This document shows, one piece after another, positions 9,594 through 38,372 of a stretch of 64,000 nt of DNA. Source of the stretch: a virus (Duplodnaviria; Heunggongvirae; Uroviricota; Caudoviricetes); IMG/VR virus record IMGVR_UViG_3300025133_000019, one strand, 5' to 3'. The position numbers and the translations under genes are program-made. The notes under the pieces were generated by a model. It was not told the DNA's origin and did no database searches. It saw only the letters and a list, made by a program, of their open reading frames with translations. Within the stretch, counting starts at the first letter, position 1, and every line of letters starts with the position of its first letter.

Positions 9594-10796
9594 GTGGAAG
9601 TTAGACAGTCTTATATAACCAAGTACAGGCCAAAAAGGTTTGAGAATGTAATTGGTCAAGACCCAAGTACCATCTATTTCCGGAAAGCAATATCCAAGGA
9701 TATGCACCCTAGCGGGTGGTTGATTACTGGACCCTATGGATTAGGTAAAACTACTATAAGTAGAATCTATGCTAAGTCAGTTTTATGTCCTAATGTAGAA
9801 GAAGATGGTAACCCCTGTAATCAATGCGATTCATGTGTTCAAGTAGATCAAGACTGTAATCCGAATTACATCGAGATTGATGCTGGATCAAATTCTGGGG
9901 TTAAAGAGATTCAAGAGATACTTGATCAAAGCAGGAATTTACCGTTGAACGGTAGCAAGTATAAGGTTATTGCTATTGATGAGTGCCATGTGATCTCTAA
10001 ACAGGCTCAGATTAAGCTATTGAAGCCGGTAGAAGATGGCATAAGTCATCTTATCATGGTTTTTCTGACTACTGACCCTGACAAACTGAATGACGCATTC
10101 AGGTCGAGGCTCTTTAGAGTTGATATATCTGTTCCAGACTTAGATAAAGTCGTAGAGGTATTGGAATCTATTTGCACAGAGGAAGGTAGAGAGTACGACA
10201 AGTCTGTCTTAGAAACTATATCCAGACAATCCAGGGGCCACTTTAGGGACGCTGTAAATTCCTTGGAGAAGTATTTAAGTTTAGGGGGAGATCAGATAAC
10301 TGGTCTTGAGGAAAGGATTTTAAAAGTATCTGATCTGCTATTAAAGATCCCCAAGGATGTTGAGGGAGCTATTAAAATTTTCCAGCATTTAACAACGATG
10401 ATGTCTTCCAAGGCGATTTGGGAATCTATGCTAGAAGTTTTAAACAACAGTACTAAAGTTAAGTACATATCTTCTAGTTTCTTTAGTGAGAACGAGATTA
10501 TAAAGTACAAGGAAATAGAAGAAGAGTACACAGAAAAGAATCTTTTCGGGGTTTACGATTTTCTATTAAAACAGCCAGTCTCTTCCCTGAGCTATGGTCC
10601 ATTAGAGCAGCTTGTTATTATGTTGCATGCCTATTTGAAGAATAGGGTGGTGTATTCTGTCGAAGATCACGTAGAAGATAATAATAACGGGTTTAAGTCA
10701 GACCATTTTAAGAAGTCTTATAACAGAAAAGCTCAATCGAGAGCCGAGGAGTCCGTACCACTAGAAGAGTTCACGGATTCCCTCAAAAGCACCTAA
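9594..10796 (+). CDS. dnaX: DNA polymerase III gamma/tau-like clamp loader subunit
   Basis: KYRPKRFENVIGQ, Walker A GPYGLGKTT, Zn module C...PCNQCDSC, EIDAGSNSGV, Walker B IDECH, RSR, GHFRDA. Confidence 0.92.
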   Translation: MEVRQSYITKYRPKRFENVIGQDPSTIYFRKAISKDMHPSGWLITGPYGLGKTTISRIYAKSVLCPNVEEDGNPCNQCDSCVQVDQDCNPNYIEIDAGSNSGVKEIQEILDQSRNLPLNGSKYKVIAIDECHVISKQAQIKLLKPVEDGISHLIMVFLTTDPDKLNDAFRSRLFRVDISVPDLDKVVEVLESICTEEGREYDKSVLETISRQSRGHFRDAVNSLEKYLSLGGDQITGLEERILKVSDLLLKIPKDVEGAIKIFQHLTTMMSSKAIWESMLEVLNNSTKVKYISSSFFSENEIIKYKEIEEEYTEKNLFGVYDFLLKQPVSSLSYGPLEQLVIMLHAYLKNRVVYSVEDHVEDNNNGFKSDHFKKSYNRKAQSRAEESVPLEEFTDSLKST

Positions 10797-10820
10797 GATA
10801 TTATGTTATATAAGATGTAG

Positions 10821-10849
10821 TTGATTTATTACAGTAATTTTGTTATAAT
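10821..10849 (+). promoter_or_regulatory. Sigma70-type promoter upstream of the nusG-like gene
   Basis: TTGATT (10821-10826), 17 bp, TG-n-TATAAT (-10 at 10844-10849). Confidence 0.7.
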
Positions 10850-10902
10850 GAATTCATAACTATTTAATTACTGTATAATCTTCTACTCCTATAAAATTCA
10901 TA

Positions 10903-11508
10903 ATGCCAGAAAAACAATTTATCGCTTTCGAATCTAATAATAATTCAAAAAAATACGAAAAATCAGAAATAATAGGGTCTATACAAAGATCTTTAATGGA
11001 TTTAAACAGGTCCCGCAAAAAAAACTACAAGGTACTGTTAAAAGATATTAAAGAAAGTATCCAGAATCTAGAGATATTCCTCCCTTTTAGAGAACTTCAA
11101 AAGGGAGGCTATTTTTTAAAAGAGAAAGAGTTTTATCTTCCTGGGTATGGATTCATTGAGTACGATCCTAATGTAACCTACTTAGGTTTAGATGAAAATA
11201 TCCACGTTAATCAGATTGTTTTGAATGAGGATTCTGAAGAATTAGATTTAGTCTCTGGCGAGGTTATAGAGTCAGAACAAATGAAGATGGATGAGTTCTT
11301 TAAAGGCCAGTTTAAATCAGGACAATTAGTTCAGATTATAGGCGGTACTTACGCTGACTTACCAGCTAGGGTTGTCGAGTTAGATGATTCTGATGGAAAA
11401 TACAAAGTAGTGGTATGTTTCAGGTCTGATATAAGGTATCTAAAAGTGGATTCGGACAAACTACGGATATTCGAGTTTGACAGAATTATTATAGAAGAGG
11501 ATTTTTAA
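10903..11508 (+). CDS. NusG/RfaH-family transcription factor (NGN + KOW)
   Basis: EIFLP...FYLPGYGFIE (end of NGN, cf. FPGYvlv) and KOW FKSGQLVQIIGGTYADLPARVVELD...YKVVV. Confidence 0.8.
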   Translation: MPEKQFIAFESNNNSKKYEKSEIIGSIQRSLMDLNRSRKKNYKVLLKDIKESIQNLEIFLPFRELQKGGYFLKEKEFYLPGYGFIEYDPNVTYLGLDENIHVNQIVLNEDSEELDLVSGEVIESEQMKMDEFFKGQFKSGQLVQIIGGTYADLPARVVELDDSDGKYKVVVCFRSDIRYLKVDSDKLRIFEFDRIIIEEDF

Positions 11509-11519
11509 GACGTTCCTAA

Positions 11520-12209
11520 TTGGAACTCAAGGCAGGTACTATAATGTCCAGTAAAGGTTATTACGTAATTCCCCTTTCTCCCGACAAGTTCGAGACAATG
11601 GGGAACGACAGATCTCTTTATAATGATACTGTTGAGGAAGAGGTAGAAAAGAAAGAATCCGGAGATATCGAGGAATCACCGGCTGAGCTATTAGAAAAGA
11701 GGTGGAAGAAGTACCAGGAAATCAAAAGTCTCTTGCCCGAACGTGAGATAGATATGCTAGAGATGTCCTTTTTACATGGAAAAGACCAGACTAGTATAGG
11801 GGAGATTTTTAATGTAACTCAGGGAGACGTTTCGTACAGAATAAGAAGAGTTTCTCATAGAATAATGTATTTAATGTCCCTCCCTGAAATTGATATGGAA
11901 GAAATGAGGCTAGACTTGTCTAAAGTATTAGACGAAGAGAAAGTTATAATACTTTTTCTATTGCTAAAATATACTTCTCAGTCCAAAGTTGGAGAAGAAC
12001 TTGGAATGCCTCAAGGAAAAGTTAGACATAGGTACATAAGCGCCATGTCTAGTATACGTAAAAAAGCGTTCAAGGACCTAAAATTTATTATGTATTATGA
12101 TCTTTTTTGTAAACTACAAGGCAACTATAATGCTCTAAGAACTTTAGATGTTCAGGATAGATGGAAGCATAAGTTTACTAAGGAAGAGCCAGAATTTGAG
12201 ATGGATTAA
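11520..12209 (+). CDS. Protein with two sigma70 region-4-like HTH domains (no sigma2)
   Basis: LPEREIDMLEMSFLHGKDQTSIGEIFNVTQGDVSYRIRR and LDEEKVIIL...SQSKVGEELGMPQGKVRHRYISAM. Start may be ATG 11544. Confidence 0.75.
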   Translation: MELKAGTIMSSKGYYVIPLSPDKFETMGNDRSLYNDTVEEEVEKKESGDIEESPAELLEKRWKKYQEIKSLLPEREIDMLEMSFLHGKDQTSIGEIFNVTQGDVSYRIRRVSHRIMYLMSLPEIDMEEMRLDLSKVLDEEKVIILFLLLKYTSQSKVGEELGMPQGKVRHRYISAMSSIRKKAFKDLKFIMYYDLFCKLQGNYNALRTLDVQDRWKHKFTKEEPEFEMD

Positions 12210-12296
12210 TAAAATATCTTCCTGATAGTCTTTTTATTTCAGGTTGTATTTAAACTGTATTCAAAAATTTTTTGAGCTGTCCGAGAGAAAAAGCAT

Positions 12297-14542: not shown

Positions 14543-16465
14543 ATGTCAGGAGTTCCCTCTTTTTTGGACACTGTTTTAGATTCTCAAGACAACTTTGAGG
14601 ATTTAGTTGAGTACAAAGATGAAGAGCTTTTAGAGGGTCCTGAACTAAACATAATTGAATTCACAGAGTCTCCTAAAGGTCTGCACCTAGAATTAAGACC
14701 CACGCAAAGGGTTATACTTAAACTCCTCTATGGAGTCCCTCTATCTACTGTTATACCAGATGAGCCAGAAAACACTCCTCCTTTGTATTCCCGCAGGATC
14801 TTAGTTAGGCATCCTGTTAGTGGTCAGGTAAACGGGCCTTTCTCCGAAGTACAATACTTAGAGTTTCTGCGAGAAGAGGGAAGAACTAATGGTATAGAAG
14901 GAAAAGAATATACTTCCCTTATTTTGAATATAGGCAGAAGGGGAGGCAAAAGTACTTTGTCTACCGTAATAAGTTCCTATGAGATATACAGGCTACTAAG
15001 AAAAAGGTGTCCACAAAGGCATTATGGTATTAGAGATAACGCTGTGATAAGGGTTATTGTAGTAGGAACTGATAAATCACAATCAGAAGACTTGTTTTCA
15101 GATATATCTAGCTTTTCTTCCTCTTCACCATATCTCCGTAAATACTTGTCAGACGATATCAAAAGTGAGATAACTTTTTTCACTCCCTATGACTTTCAGA
15201 AAGCAAACAGATCTGGAACTAGGATAAAGCCTACTTTACTTATTAAGCCTGTCAGTTGTAATGCTCCTGCGGTACGAGGTCCTAATACTATTGATGGTAT
15301 TATGGACGAGTGTGCTCACATGATGGATAGCACAAGTAAGAAGGCTTCTGCAAACTCAGTTTATGAAGCCCTGGAGCCTTCTGTTAGCACTTTTTATGAC
15401 GGTAAAATGATTTTAATTAGCACCCCAAACGGCCCACAAGGATTTTTTTATGATATTTTTACCATGGCTGCTCAGGAGGGGGACGACAGCGATATATTGG
15501 TAATAAAAGCTCCTACATGGGAAATAAATCCAGGCCGAGTGACTGATGTTAAATACAGGAACAAATGGAAGTTAGATAAAAATTCTTTTAGACAAGAGTA
15601 TGGGGCAGATTTTACTAGTACGGTAAGGGATTATATTGAAGATCCGGACATGTTTTTCAAAAATATTTATCCTATTCCTGGGGTAACTGAAAATGAGGAG
15701 TGTAAGTTACCTGAACAAGAGCCTGCTGAGAAGGGTCAGCAAGGTATAGATTACTATTTTGCTGCTGACCTAGGGTTTAAACAGGATAGCACTTGTTTCG
15801 CTATTGGACATGCCGAGGGGGATGGCGAAGACAAGAAAATTGTAGTTGATTATGTGGCCGAATACCAGCCGGGGGAAGAATTTGAGTGGACGAATGATCA
15901 AGGAGTGATTTCGTTTGAGAAAATGTCTAAGGAAACAGTGGACCTAACAGAGAGCTTTAATATTGTTAAAGGTGCATTTGACCAACACCACGGACCTGCA
16001 TACAGTGAGCATTTATTGAACAATGGAATAACTAATTTTGTAGAATTGCCTCCAAGTGATAAACTGCATAATGATGTTTATCAGGTTTTCCGTAGGTTGT
16101 ATCAAGAAGAGAGACTAGTTCTTCCTGGTTATGACTGGATTATAGATGGGTTTTTAGATCTAATTATGGTTAAAAAAGGCGTGGGAGACAAAGAGAAAAT
16201 AAAAGTTGCTGCTACTAGAGGAAAACATGATGACGTGCCGGATGCTATATCCAGATTAGTGTACTTAATTTTCAAAGAAGTTTATTTGAAAGAGGGGGTC
16301 GGGGCTAAGGTGTCTAAACCCGTGAAAACTAGTGGGTACAGGGTTGTAACTGATTTAAGGCACAACAGAAATTTATTGAATAAGCATAATTCTAATGCAG
16401 TGGATTCTTACATGAGGAAACAGGGACATTCTAATTCACGGGGCCGAATGAAGAGAAGATTTTAG
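14543..16465 (+). CDS. terL: Terminase large subunit
   Basis: LRPTQ, Walker A GRRGGKS, Walker B GIMDE, ISTPNG, RQEYGADF, nuclease ADLG and HDDVPDA. Confidence 0.95.
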   Translation: MSGVPSFLDTVLDSQDNFEDLVEYKDEELLEGPELNIIEFTESPKGLHLELRPTQRVILKLLYGVPLSTVIPDEPENTPPLYSRRILVRHPVSGQVNGPFSEVQYLEFLREEGRTNGIEGKEYTSLILNIGRRGGKSTLSTVISSYEIYRLLRKRCPQRHYGIRDNAVIRVIVVGTDKSQSEDLFSDISSFSSSSPYLRKYLSDDIKSEITFFTPYDFQKANRSGTRIKPTLLIKPVSCNAPAVRGPNTIDGIMDECAHMMDSTSKKASANSVYEALEPSVSTFYDGKMILISTPNGPQGFFYDIFTMAAQEGDDSDILVIKAPTWEINPGRVTDVKYRNKWKLDKNSFRQEYGADFTSTVRDYIEDPDMFFKNIYPIPGVTENEECKLPEQEPAEKGQQGIDYYFAADLGFKQDSTCFAIGHAEGDGEDKKIVVDYVAEYQPGEEFEWTNDQGVISFEKMSKETVDLTESFNIVKGAFDQHHGPAYSEHLLNNGITNFVELPPSDKLHNDVYQVFRRLYQEERLVLPGYDWIIDGFLDLIMVKKGVGDKEKIKVAATRGKHDDVPDAISRLVYLIFKEVYLKEGVGAKVSKPVKTSGYRVVTDLRHNRNLLNKHNSNAVDSYMRKQGHSNSRGRMKRRF

Positions 16466-18745: not shown

Positions 18746-18784
18746 TTAGTATTGTCTTTCTTTAAAGTCAATACTAATTTTTTT
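18746..18784 (+). terminator. Hairpin plus U-tract between portal and protease (putative intrinsic terminator)
   Basis: TTAGTATTGTCTTT / AAAGTCAATACTAA stem with one mismatch, then T7. AT-rich, probably weak. Confidence 0.5.
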
Positions 18785-23069: not shown

Positions 23070-23094
23070 GGCCCCTCTAGTAGGGGCCTTTTTT
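23070..23094 (+). terminator. Intrinsic terminator after MCP
   Basis: GGCCCCT-ctagt-AGGGGCC followed by TTTTTT. Confidence 0.9.
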
Positions 23095-23130
23095 ATATTC
23101 AATTGTTTTTCGATTGTTAGTAACATAGAT

Positions 23131-23155
23131 AAAAAGCTGTTTTGACAGCTTTTTT
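23131..23155. terminator. Second hairpin, possibly a bidirectional terminator
   Basis: AAAAAGCTGT-tttg-ACAGCTTTTTT. Confidence 0.6.
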
Positions 23156-24585: not shown

Positions 24586-24855
24586 ATGCCGTTTTATAGT
24601 TATAGATGTGAAAGCTGTTCTCACGAGTTTGAAGAAATGAGAAGTATAAGTTCTATGGATGAAGAAAGCAGTTGTCCCGAGTGCTCCAAAAACGGTAAAA
24701 GGTTTTTTAATGTAGGCAGTGAAGTTAGTGTTATTTACACAGGTTGGGGATGGCATGATAAAAATGTTAAGCTGGCTCAACATAGAATGGAACAGAGTAA
24801 AAAAATGGAGAAGCTTCAGAAGGACAATCACCCTAGCCTGAGAGCTAGAAGATAA
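24586..24855 (+). CDS. FmdB-family zinc-ribbon protein
   Basis: MPFYSYRCESCSHEFE...CPECS...GWGWH. Confidence 0.85.
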   Translation: MPFYSYRCESCSHEFEEMRSISSMDEESSCPECSKNGKRFFNVGSEVSVIYTGWGWHDKNVKLAQHRMEQSKKMEKLQKDNHPSLRARR

Positions 24856-24864
24856 GGAGATATT

Positions 24865-34388: not shown

Positions 34389-34476
34389 TTTATATTGAGT
34401 AATGGTTAATTTTTTATTTATTTTGTATTTCTTTAAAAGGAAATCATTATTATCAAGATTTTAAGAAGGTATTACT

Positions 34477-38283: not shown

Positions 38284-38314
38284 AAAAAGGGTCGGAGTTT
38301 TCCGACCCTTTTTT
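38284..38314 (+). terminator. Intrinsic (bidirectional-type) terminator after tail tube
   Basis: AAAAAGGGTCGGA-gttt-TCCGACCCTTTTTT. Confidence 0.92.
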
Positions 38315-38372
38315 ATTTTCTTTTATTTATTTGTATTTCATGAAACTACATTAAATTAAGGGAAACTACAAA

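What the first reader, a model, noticed from the sequence alone, without database searches (positions are those of the whole stretch)
10797..12296. Phage NusG paralog plus twin-sigma4 protein at the head of a >50 kb late region: candidate late-transcription system
Seen: a promoter-driven gene pair (NGN-KOW protein; protein with two sigma4-like HTHs and no sigma2) sits between the clamp-loader gene and the first of ~40 co-oriented morphogenesis genes, which contain internal terminators (18746, 23070, 23131, 38284). Known: specialised NusG paralogs (RfaH, UpxY, LoaP) antiterminate very long operons; NGN binds the beta' clamp helices, where sigma2 also binds, and sigma4 binds the beta flap and -35 DNA; T4 late transcription uses a split sigma (gp55 + gp33) tied to the sliding clamp. 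Inference: the pair reprograms host RNAP, either as antiterminator plus activator or as a composite sigma substitute, perhaps coupled to replication through the adjacent DnaX. I know of no characterised phage system with this composition.
Basis: partly seen in the sequence, partly recalled or inferred. Interest (0 to 1): 0.8.

Follow-up and report, generated by a model that had tools for sequence, protein, structure and literature searches.

The report
Huge-phage NusG paralog plus twin-sigma4 protein
A marine-type huge phage, like at least ten related lineages, carries a divergent copy of the RNA-polymerase-riding factor NusG next to a protein made of two sigma-region-4 DNA-binding domains; the pair sits between its DNA-replication and virion genes, probably reprograms the host polymerase, and I found no paper describing it.

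Summary
ORF-A (10903-11508) folds as NusG: an NGN domain plus a KOW barrel (AF2 pLDDT 91; about 30 top Foldseek hits are NusG/RfaH/Spt5). ORF-B (11544-12209) has one true sigma region 4, Z about 11, and a second, weaker sigma4-like HTH. It has no sigma2. A conserved sigma70-type promoter drives the pair, and all four named terminators are real.

The string primase...DnaX, NusG-like, twin-sigma4 recurs in 11 lineages. terL lies 2-8 kb downstream in nine of them.

- In four lineages the NusG-like gene is fused or adjacent to a 5'-3' flap exonuclease. This scan has already reported that fusion in other huge phages.
- In one relative the pair stays with DnaX and no terL lies in the 10 kb held downstream.
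- The virion region has its own non-sigma70 motif (TTTATTT, 1-4 nt, TTGTATTT) before three gene blocks. A single operon of more than 50 kb is therefore unlikely.

Best reading (0.42): ORF-B activates these late promoters and ORF-A makes host RNAP terminator-resistant. The rivals are a replication-coupled role and a split sigma substitute. No function has been tested. I found no paper on phage-encoded NusG.

The parts
9594..10796 (+). DnaX-like clamp-loader ATPase, the conserved upstream neighbour of the pair
   Evidence: PF13177 2.5e-22 and phrog_5846 2e-56. It stands directly upstream of the NusG-like ORF in 9 of 11 lineages. The L022 contig is cut just upstream of its NusG-like gene, and L013 has no DnaX there.
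10821..10849 (+). Sigma70-type promoter with extended -10 (TTGATT-17-TG-n-TATAAT). A second TGTATAAT lies at 10872-10879.
   Evidence: The equivalent promoters are TTGATT..TGTTATAAT in L007, TTGACA-17-GATAAT in L010 and TTGATT-17-TATACT in L003, read.
10830..10875 (.). Imperfect dyad across the promoter (TACAGTAATT ... AATTACTGTA); candidate operator
   Evidence: 23-nt arms, 74% complementary. A GTAATTAA/TTAATTAC dyad occupies the same place in L007.
10903..11508 (+). ORF-A, 201 aa: divergent NusG-family protein. NGN domain about residues 1-134 with one extra helix, KOW barrel about 135-190, acidic-hydrophobic tail 191-201.
   Evidence: Conserved NGN positions LPFRE and PGYGF; KOW signature GQLVxIxxGTYAxLxARVVE.
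11544..12209 (+). ORF-B, 221 aa. Layout: acidic disordered N-terminus (1-45), sigma region 4 (46-114), second sigma4-like HTH (115-192), conserved tail LRSLDVQDRWKHKF.
   Evidence: The recognition helices QGDVSYRI and QGKVRHRY are invariant or nearly so across 26 members.
12233..12251 (+). Motif TTTATTT-N4-TTGTATTT, 46 nt before the first virion-region gene; candidate late promoter or ORF-B site
   Evidence: 3 matches in the window, 0 in 100 shuffles. Partly conserved in L007 and L037. The leader RNA 12215-12296 shows no significant structure (z 0.27).
18748..18784 (+). AT-rich hairpin plus T-run after the portal gene (terminator-like)
   Evidence: -11.1 kcal/mol, z -5.1. Conserved in L007.
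23070..23154 (+). Two tandem intrinsic terminators after the major head protein gene. A weaker motif copy, TTTTTTATATTCAATTGTTTTT, lies between them at 23089-23110.
34413..34430 (+). Second full copy of the motif, before the tail sheath gene
38284..38313 (+). Strong intrinsic terminator after the 242-aa gene that follows the sheath gene
   Evidence: 13 pairs, 6 G-C; -19.9 kcal/mol, z -5.0
38322..38338 (+). Third full copy of the motif, directly after the terminator and 35 nt before the next gene
14543..16465 (+). Large terminase, the conserved downstream landmark
   Evidence: phrog_2 2.7e-26. terL lies 2-8 kb downstream of the twin-sigma4 gene in 9 of 11 lineages.

Best explanation
The two genes form a phage transcription-control cassette that acts on the host RNA polymerase. 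Host holoenzyme makes them early or in the middle of infection, from a sigma70-type promoter or, in relatives, together with the replication genes.

ORF-B is a monomer with two sigma4-type helix-turn-helix domains. I propose that it binds the paired sites TKTATTT, 3-5 nt, TKTATTT that stand where a -35 element would be in front of virion gene blocks. There it would replace or assist region 4 of the host sigma and switch on late promoters that lack a sigma70 consensus.

ORF-A would bind the beta' clamp helices through its NGN domain, as all NusG proteins do. That would make the elongating polymerase pause- and terminator-resistant across the hairpin terminators inside the virion region.

Shown: the folds, the lack of sigma2, the conserved gene pairing, the promoter, the terminators and the motif.

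Inferred: binding to RNAP, binding of ORF-B to the motif, activation and antitermination.
For: Folds and families:
- ORF-A has the NusG fold and family.
- ORF-B has a true sigma region 4 plus a second sigma4-like HTH, with ECF-type recognition helices that are invariant across 26 members.
- The look-alike clusters in the ESM Atlas are 96-100% viral, 188-216 aa long and carry sigma4 only.

Genomic setting:
- The pair is adjacent in 11 lineages and lies upstream of terL in nine.
- A conserved host-type promoter stands in front of the pair.
- ORF-B is the last gene before the virion block and sits directly upstream of the first motif copy. [quoted passage not shown]

Late promoters and terminators:
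- The full motif occurs three times, always intergenic and 35-47 nt before a + strand gene, against 0 expected.
- The two half-sites are near-identical direct repeats 10-12 bp apart, which suits two tandem HTH domains in one chain (sequence).
- Related T-rich motifs sit in intergenic DNA of relatives. Both TTTATTT copies in the 54%-GC L015 locus are intergenic.
- Sigma70-like matches in the virion region do not exceed chance.
- Four real terminators lie inside the co-oriented block.

Relative genome: the 485-kb relative has no RpoB-type polymerase gene detectable by Pfam, so host RNAP is the likely target.
Against: - No binding or activity has been tested.
- The motif-to-ORF-B link rests only on position and geometry. 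The motif is T-rich in an AT-rich genome, and its second half is not conserved in the 86%-identical relative L007/L037.
- A motif copy directly follows the 38284 terminator and a weaker one follows the capsid terminator, which lowers the need for antitermination there.
- The NusG-like family is fused or adjacent to a flap exonuclease in four lineages and overlaps DnaX, which points to replication.
- In L003 the pair is not followed by the terL block within the 10 kb held downstream.
- ORF-B is acidic overall (pI 5.5) and larger than known Ltr proteins.
- The Phe of the NusG KOW loop that binds S10 and Rho (my recollection of E. coli NusG) is not conserved in the family.
Confidence: 0.42

Rival explanations
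1. Replication-linked role. The NusG-like protein places RNA polymerase and the replication or repair machinery together: flap exonuclease/RNase H, clamp loader and clamp. This would remove R-loops, process transcripts into primers or settle transcription-replication collisions. The twin-sigma4 protein would direct the transcription that this needs, for example at origins. On this reading the pair belongs to the replication module, and its place before the virion genes is incidental.
For: - About 15 of 94 family hits are about 600 aa long, and all seven of those scanned are fusions of NGN-KOW to PF02739+PF01367.
- L022 and L025 have the order NusG~FEN fusion, sigma4 protein, preceded by DnaX in L025; the L022 contig is cut just upstream.
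- L015 and L023 have separate but adjacent NusG-like and FEN genes.
- DnaX overlaps the NusG-like ORF in L015, L023, L025 and L016.
- In L003 the pair stays with primase and DnaX, while the terL block is absent from the 10 kb held downstream.
- In Chimalliviridae an RNase H-clamp protein supports both replication and late transcription, probably through R-loops (abstract of 10.64898/2026.10.01.755736).
Against: - The window's lineage and six others have no FEN at this site. The 485-kb relative has no PF02739 hit anywhere, so the NusG-like and sigma4 genes persist without it.
- The pair has its own promoter in the window's lineage.
- A sequence-specific sigma4 protein fits promoter control better than repair.
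Confidence: 0.22
2. Composite sigma substitute, like T4 late transcription. The NGN domain would occupy the beta' clamp helices, which is the site of sigma2 and of T4 gp55. The sigma4 domain would occupy the beta flap, which is the site of T4 gp33. Together they would replace the host sigma at late promoters, perhaps activated by a sliding clamp loaded by the neighbouring DnaX.
For: - Both docking surfaces are covered by the two domain types found (the sites themselves are established knowledge of NusG, sigma70 and T4 gp33/gp55).
- The late-type motif lacks a sigma70 -10.
- The clamp loader is the constant neighbour.
- ORF-A ends in a conserved acidic-hydrophobic disordered tail. I recall this as reminiscent of T4 clamp-binding tails.
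- Pfam Sigma70_r2 finds nothing in the 485-kb relative.
Against: - No NGN domain is known to recognise or melt a promoter.
- The weak ECF-like region-2 candidate in the relative (18 bits, E 3.4e-4) leaves room for an ordinary phage sigma.
- No phage clamp gene was seen (PF00712 absent in the relative), and only 64 of about 374 kb of this genome could be read.
Confidence: 0.12
3. ORF-B is not an activator. It is either a repressor or autoregulator that binds the dyad over its own promoter, or a sigma4 decoy that competes for the beta flap and shuts off -35-dependent host promoters. The phage's extended -10 promoters would stay active. ORF-A would then be a general elongation aid.
For: - A dyad covers the spacer, the -10 and the start of the ORF-A promoter and is partly conserved in L007.
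- The pair's promoters carry extended -10 TG motifs.
- The second domain of one family member resembles the KorA repressor (PF16509, 9e-5).
Against: - The dyad half-sites are inverted and 36 bp apart, which does not suit a monomer with two tandem HTH domains.
- The invariant DNA-recognition helices argue for DNA binding rather than a pure decoy.
- The gene's position is that of late activators.
Confidence: 0.1

Closest known systems
Specialised NusG paralogs (RfaH, UpxY, LoaP, TaA, ActX)
   Same: Both have the two-domain NGN-KOW architecture. Both are extra copies encoded on or beside the long, foreign or specialised gene block that they are thought to serve; PMC7819879 notes that loaP, taA and upxY lie adjacent to their target operons. 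Terminators lie inside the presumed target.
   Different: ORF-A is phage-encoded. Its scores fall far below every family cut-off (nusG 25 bits against 135.7, UpxY 20 against 100, RfaH 18 against 144.5). It has an extra helix in the NGN domain. No ops-like or leader-RNA recruitment signal was found. The KOW is predicted as a barrel, not an RfaH-type helical hairpin. It is always paired with a sigma4 protein and a clamp loader.
NusG-flap-exonuclease fusions of huge phages
   Same: The NGN-KOW family is the same: profile hits at E 1e-10 to 1e-4. The neighbours are also the same, with DnaX before and a sigma4 protein after.
   Different: The window's protein stands alone. No flap exonuclease lies in the 64-kb window at this site.
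Late transcriptional regulators of Gram-positive phages (RinA, ArpU, LtrC; the 'Ltr' families)
   Same: The gene is the last one before the packaging and head genes and sits directly upstream of the presumed late promoter (PMC13123087). It is an HTH protein.
   Different: No sequence match to those families was found. ORF-B is 221 aa and acidic rather than about 130 aa and basic. It has two sigma4 domains and is partnered with a NusG paralog.
T4 late (gp55/gp33/gp45) and middle (MotA/AsiA) transcription
   Same: In both cases phage proteins take over the sigma docking sites on host RNAP. The promoters lack a normal -35/-10 pair. There is also a genetic tie to the clamp loader.
   Different: The protein families are different. 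No gp55-like sigma2 was seen. No clamp dependence is shown. This comparison is by analogy only.
Lambda Q and N antitermination
   Same: A phage factor made earlier in infection allows host RNAP to read through terminators in the late region.
   Different: The proteins are unrelated. Here the elongation factor is itself a NusG homologue, rather than a protein that recruits the host NusG.

Membership tests
NusG/Spt5 superfamily | NGN domain fold | tested here: met
   AF2 pLDDT 91. Foldseek finds NusG, RfaH and Spt5 at E 1e-8 to 1e-4, including NGN-only RfaH chains (8pen_P, TMt 0.60). 30 of 61 profile relatives carry PF02357. The positions P61 and PGYxF are conserved.
NusG/Spt5 superfamily | C-terminal KOW beta-barrel | tested here: met
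   Pfam KOW E=1e-3, 19.1 bits against a cut-off of 22.3. Structural match to the E. coli NusG C-terminal domain 2jvv: TMt 0.82, rmsd 1.6 A.
NusG/Spt5 superfamily | Binds the RNAP beta' clamp helices | not testable with these tools
   The host is unknown and no RNAP co-fold was run.
Housekeeping NusG, RfaH, UpxY (NCBIfam equivalogs and subfamily) | Score above the curated family cut-off | tested here: not met
   TIGR00922 25.1 against 135.7; NF033644 19.8 against 100; TIGR01955 18.4 against 144.5
RfaH-type paralog | Autoinhibited helical KOW and an ops-type recruitment element | tested here: inconclusive
   AF2 gives a barrel KOW, but AF2 usually shows only one state. No recruitment element was identified, and the leader 12215-12296 is unstructured.
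Sigma70-family sigma factor | Region 2 (-10 recognition, core binding) | tested here: not met
   No Sigma70_r2 hit in ORF-B or in any of 26 family members. The N-terminal 45 residues are acidic and disordered.
Sigma70-family sigma factor | Region 4 (HTH, -35 recognition, flap binding) | tested here: met
   PF04545 8.4e-12, above the cut-off. Z 10-11.6 to region 4 of WhiG, SigL, SigD, SigB and SigE. The second copy is below threshold: PF04545 1.5e-4 and Z 6.7.
Ltr late regulators (RinA/ArpU/LtrC) | Sequence membership in one of the Ltr families | tested here: not met
   No such hit in Pfam or NCBIfam at E<=1
Ltr late regulators (RinA/ArpU/LtrC) | [quoted passage not shown] | tested here: met
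   Gene order in the window and in 9 of 11 lineages. The definition is taken from PMC13123087.
T4-type late system (gp55/gp33/clamp) | Sliding-clamp-dependent activation and a gp55-like sigma2 protein | not testable with these tools
   Only 64 of about 374 kb of the genome is readable. The relative LR745208.1 has no PF00712 or PF04542 hit and one weak ECF-like candidate.
Small terminase (TerS) | Gene directly upstream of terL, with an oligomerisation domain after an N-terminal HTH | tested here: not met
   Another conserved 134-179-aa gene holds the place directly before terL in all lineages. ORF-B has two HTH domains and no coiled-coil core.

The most novel reading that the evidence does not exclude
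The NusG paralog and the twin-sigma4 protein together replace the host sigma factor. The NGN domain would sit on the beta' clamp helices and sigma4 on the beta flap and the promoter DNA. The pair would be coupled to replication through the clamp loader, the clamp and, in relatives, the fused flap nuclease. That would make it a T4-like, replication-coupled late-transcription machine built from different parts. It would also be the first case of a NusG-family protein acting in initiation.
Probability: 0.12. Interest if true: 0.92.

Novelty: new variant of a known kind. Interest (0 to 1): 0.66.

Why it matters
NusG is the only transcription factor conserved in all cellular life. Its specialised paralogs are known from bacterial chromosomes and plasmids, and the reviews and searches I read name no phage-encoded one.

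This cassette is conserved and virus-specific. It pairs such a paralog with a sigma4-only protein and ties both to the replication genes. It may show how huge phages that appear to lack their own RNA polymerase time their late genes.

It also gives a concrete set of parts for testing: two small proteins, a 19-bp motif and four terminators. In vitro tests with standard RNAP could ask whether transcription and replication are physically linked in these phages.

Tried and rejected
- Co-folding ORF-A with ORF-B gave no verdict: score 0.31 against a mark of 0.32, controls 0.00. It counts neither for nor against binding.
- An IMG/VR scan with the ORF-B family found no relatives. The one metagenome scan added only 8 loci, mostly close relatives.
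- No whole genome is held for the window. The 374-kb contig was never offered as a locus. I therefore could not search this phage for sigma2, a flap exonuclease, a clamp or further paralogs. I used the 485-kb relative LR745208.1 instead.
- BLASTP between the two halves of ORF-B shows no detectable internal repeat. The duplication shows only at profile and fold level.
- A profile search of PDB sequences with the ORF-B family gave only marginal sigma hits. Whole-model Foldseek gave nothing below E 1e-3. The wide VIA search was needed.
- TerS was considered for ORF-B and rejected; see the membership test.
- I looked for a -10 hexamer at a fixed distance after TTGTAT and found none. I therefore do not call the motif a sigma70 promoter.
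- The early-promoter pattern TTGAC-N12-TAYTAR, noted elsewhere in this genome by another reader, is not enriched in this window: 4 matches against 8.2 expected.
- The weak sigma2-like ORF of LR745208.1 has no sigma hit in PDB by single-sequence search and no homologue in any held locus.
Full report
WHAT IS THERE

The window is one strand-biased stretch of a huge phage. The proteins occur on a contig of 374,268 bp. The nearest phage record by terminase is the 485-kb uncultured phage LR745208.1, at 32% identity.

The gene order, left to right, is:
- class II ribonucleotide reductase, M16 peptidase, a fibre-like protein;
- primase (7856-8569), a 337-aa protein, DnaX-like clamp loader (9594-10796);
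- ORF-A (10903-11508) and ORF-B (11544-12209);
- a 586-aa and a 155-aa protein of no known family;
- terL, portal, prohead protease, major head protein, and further on the sheath and baseplate-like proteins.

All of these lie on the + strand.

ORF-A IS A NusG-FAMILY PROTEIN

Direct Pfam evidence is thin: KOW at E 1e-3, below the cut-off. Four other lines agree.
- PHROGs gives 'transcription antiterminator' at 2e-4. NCBIfam gives nusG at 1.3e-5, followed by UpxY and RfaH, all far below their cut-offs.
- Of 23 weak PDB sequence hits, 21 are NusG or Spt5.
- A profile of six close homologues, run against 1.84 billion representatives, found 94 proteins at E<1e-3. Of 61 aligned, 30 carry Pfam NusG (NGN, best 1.4e-18) and 34 carry KOW.
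- With that alignment AF2 gives pLDDT 91 and pTM 0.81. About 30 of the best Foldseek PDB matches are NusG, RfaH or Spt5, with E down to 1.2e-8.

The NGN hallmark positions LPFRE and PGYGF and the KOW signature GQLVxIxxGTYAxLxARVVE are visible in the alignments.

ORF-B IS TWO SIGMA4-TYPE HTH DOMAINS WITHOUT SIGMA2

- Pfam Sigma70_r4 scores 8.4e-12, above its cut-off.
- The second half alone scores Sigma70_r4 at 1.5e-4, below the cut-off.
- The AF2 model is confident for residues 46-192.
- The wide structural search aligns residues 43-114 to region 4 of many sigma factors at Z 10-11.6, rmsd about 2 A.
- Residues 114-191 align to RpoS region 4 only at Z 6.7.

Both recognition helices have the ECF-type pattern: QGDVSYRI and QGKVRHRY. 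The first is invariant and the second largely so across 26 family members of 161-225 aa, none of which has a region 2 hit. The ends carry short conserved motifs in disordered stretches. ESM Atlas look-alikes form at least six clusters of 65-182 members that are 96-100% viral.

I ran local profiles of both families, and of DnaX, terL, primase and flap exonuclease, over six-frame ORFs of the loci I had fetched. The 11 distinct lineages are the window, L007 (with L036 and L037), L039, L010, L003, L013, L015, L016 (LR745208.1), L022, L023 and L025.
- In all 11, a NusG-like ORF lies no more than 2.7 kb upstream of the twin-sigma4 ORF.
- DnaX lies directly upstream of the NusG-like ORF in nine.
- terL lies 2-8 kb downstream in nine.

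Two facts change the picture.
- About 15 of the 94 NusG-like hits are about 600 aa long. All seven of those scanned are N-terminal NGN-KOW fused to a PolA-type 5'-3' exonuclease. In L022 and L025 this fusion sits directly before the sigma4 gene, with DnaX upstream in L025 and the L022 contig cut there. In L015 and L023 the two genes are separate but adjacent. Earlier follow-ups of this scan reported the same fusion in other huge phages.
- In L003 the trio DnaX, A, B is followed by unrelated genes, and no terL lies in the 10 kb held downstream.

The pair is therefore bound at least as tightly to the replication genes as to the virion genes.

PROMOTERS AND TERMINATORS

The ORF-A promoter is TTGATT-17-TATAAT with TG, at 10821-10849. 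It has sigma70-type counterparts before the orthologue in L007, L010 and L003. In other relatives the gene overlaps DnaX and needs no promoter of its own. An imperfect dyad covers the promoter, as another first-stage note said, and L007 keeps a dyad in the same place.

They follow the portal gene, the major head gene (two in tandem) and the gene after the sheath.

Sigma70-like matches in the virion region are no more frequent than in shuffled sequence. Instead, TTTATTT-N(1-4)-TTGTATTT occurs three times, with none expected:
- before the first virion-region gene;
- before the sheath gene;
- just after the 38284 terminator.

A weaker copy follows the capsid terminator. The half-sites are near-identical direct repeats 10-12 bp apart. 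I found no -10 hexamer at a fixed distance from them. Related T-rich elements lie in intergenic DNA of relatives, and both TTTATTT copies in the 54%-GC L015 locus are intergenic. The second half-site, however, is not kept in the close relative L007. I treat the motif as a candidate late promoter, not a proven one. It makes a single operon of more than 50 kb unlikely.

SIGMA2 AND RNAP ELSEWHERE

The window's own genome could not be searched. In LR745208.1:
- Pfam Sigma70_r2, RpoB domain 6, NusG, 5'-3' exonuclease and the beta clamp all find nothing;
- a second twin-sigma4 paralog of 269 aa lies elsewhere in the genome;
- the ECF model finds one weak region-2-like stretch (18 bits, E 3.4e-4) in a 244-aa ORF, which I could not confirm.

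'No phage sigma2' is therefore likely but not settled.

HOW IT MOST LIKELY WORKS

I favour, at 0.42, a two-part takeover of host RNAP. ORF-B would act as a late activator that binds the paired motif in the -35 region. ORF-A would act as an elongation and antitermination factor. The basis is the folds, the invariant recognition helices, the position typical of late regulators, the motif geometry and the internal terminators.

The replication-linked reading (0.22) rests on the exonuclease fusions, the overlap with DnaX and the L003 arrangement. It has a published parallel in the Chimalliviridae RNase H-clamp protein, which supports late transcription. A repressor or decoy role for ORF-B is the fourth option (0.10). 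The remainder allows for something else.

The one co-folding job gave no verdict and is not used as evidence.

NOVELTY

Two reviews of NusG paralogs name none encoded by a phage. The phrases 'phage-encoded NusG' and 'viral NusG' occur in none of about 8.4 million texts. PHROGs does hold a family annotated as antiterminator, so such genes are catalogued but not studied.

Both components belong to known superfamilies, and no function has been shown. I therefore class this as a new variant of a known kind. It is of good interest because it is conserved, virus-specific and directly testable.

Noticed in passing
L022:293-2194; L025:8001-9890; proteins P0018, P0038, P0047, P0050, P0064, P0071, P0101: Proteins of about 600 aa that fuse an N-terminal NusG-like NGN-KOW to a PolA-type 5'-3' flap exonuclease. 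They sit directly before the sigma4 gene in related huge phages, with DnaX upstream where the contig reaches that far. This scan has seen the same fusion before in other genomes.
   Followed up: partly
L018:1210-2019 (LR745208.1, about 154 kb): A second twin-sigma4 paralog of 269 aa with a 95-aa N-terminal extension, far from the first copy. It hints at a cascade of such factors.
   Followed up: partly
L029:1375-2109 (- strand; LR745208.1, about 74 kb): A 244-aa ORF with a weak ECF sigma region-2-like stretch (TIGR02937 positions 22-110, 18 bits). It could be a very divergent phage sigma factor.
   Followed up: partly
window 24587-24860: The 280-nt 'gap' between called ORFs holds a small ORF that begins MPFYSYRCESCSHEFEE and has a second CPEC pair. 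This looks like a zinc ribbon of the FmdB/Zn_ribbon_8 kind. L003 has a 66-aa Zn_ribbon_8 gene.
   Followed up: no
window 1-1923 and L007:1-358: The ribonucleotide reductase orthologue is called as a 1226-aa product with intein and LAGLIDADG hits in a relative.
   Followed up: no
L033:17166-18517 (same phage, about 3.7 kb beyond the window's end): Two adjacent genes hit Glyco_transf_29, the sialyltransferase family. They lie next to tail-fibre-like genes with Peptidase_S74 and Kelch-type propeller hits.
   Followed up: no
window 3354-4547: M16 metallopeptidase. Its orthologues hit Peptidase_M16 and M16_C, and it is conserved upstream of the replication genes in L003, L007 and the window.
   Followed up: no
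ORF-A residues 191-201; ORF-B residues 5-25 and 198-212: Short conserved motifs in predicted disordered ends: an acidic-hydrophobic tail on ORF-A, and on ORF-B YYVIPLSP-type and LRSLDVQDRWKHKF motifs. They are candidate docking peptides for unknown partners.
   Followed up: no
L023:12035-13873: A Mom-like (PF25680) 612-aa gene directly follows the sigma4 gene in one relative.
   Followed up: no
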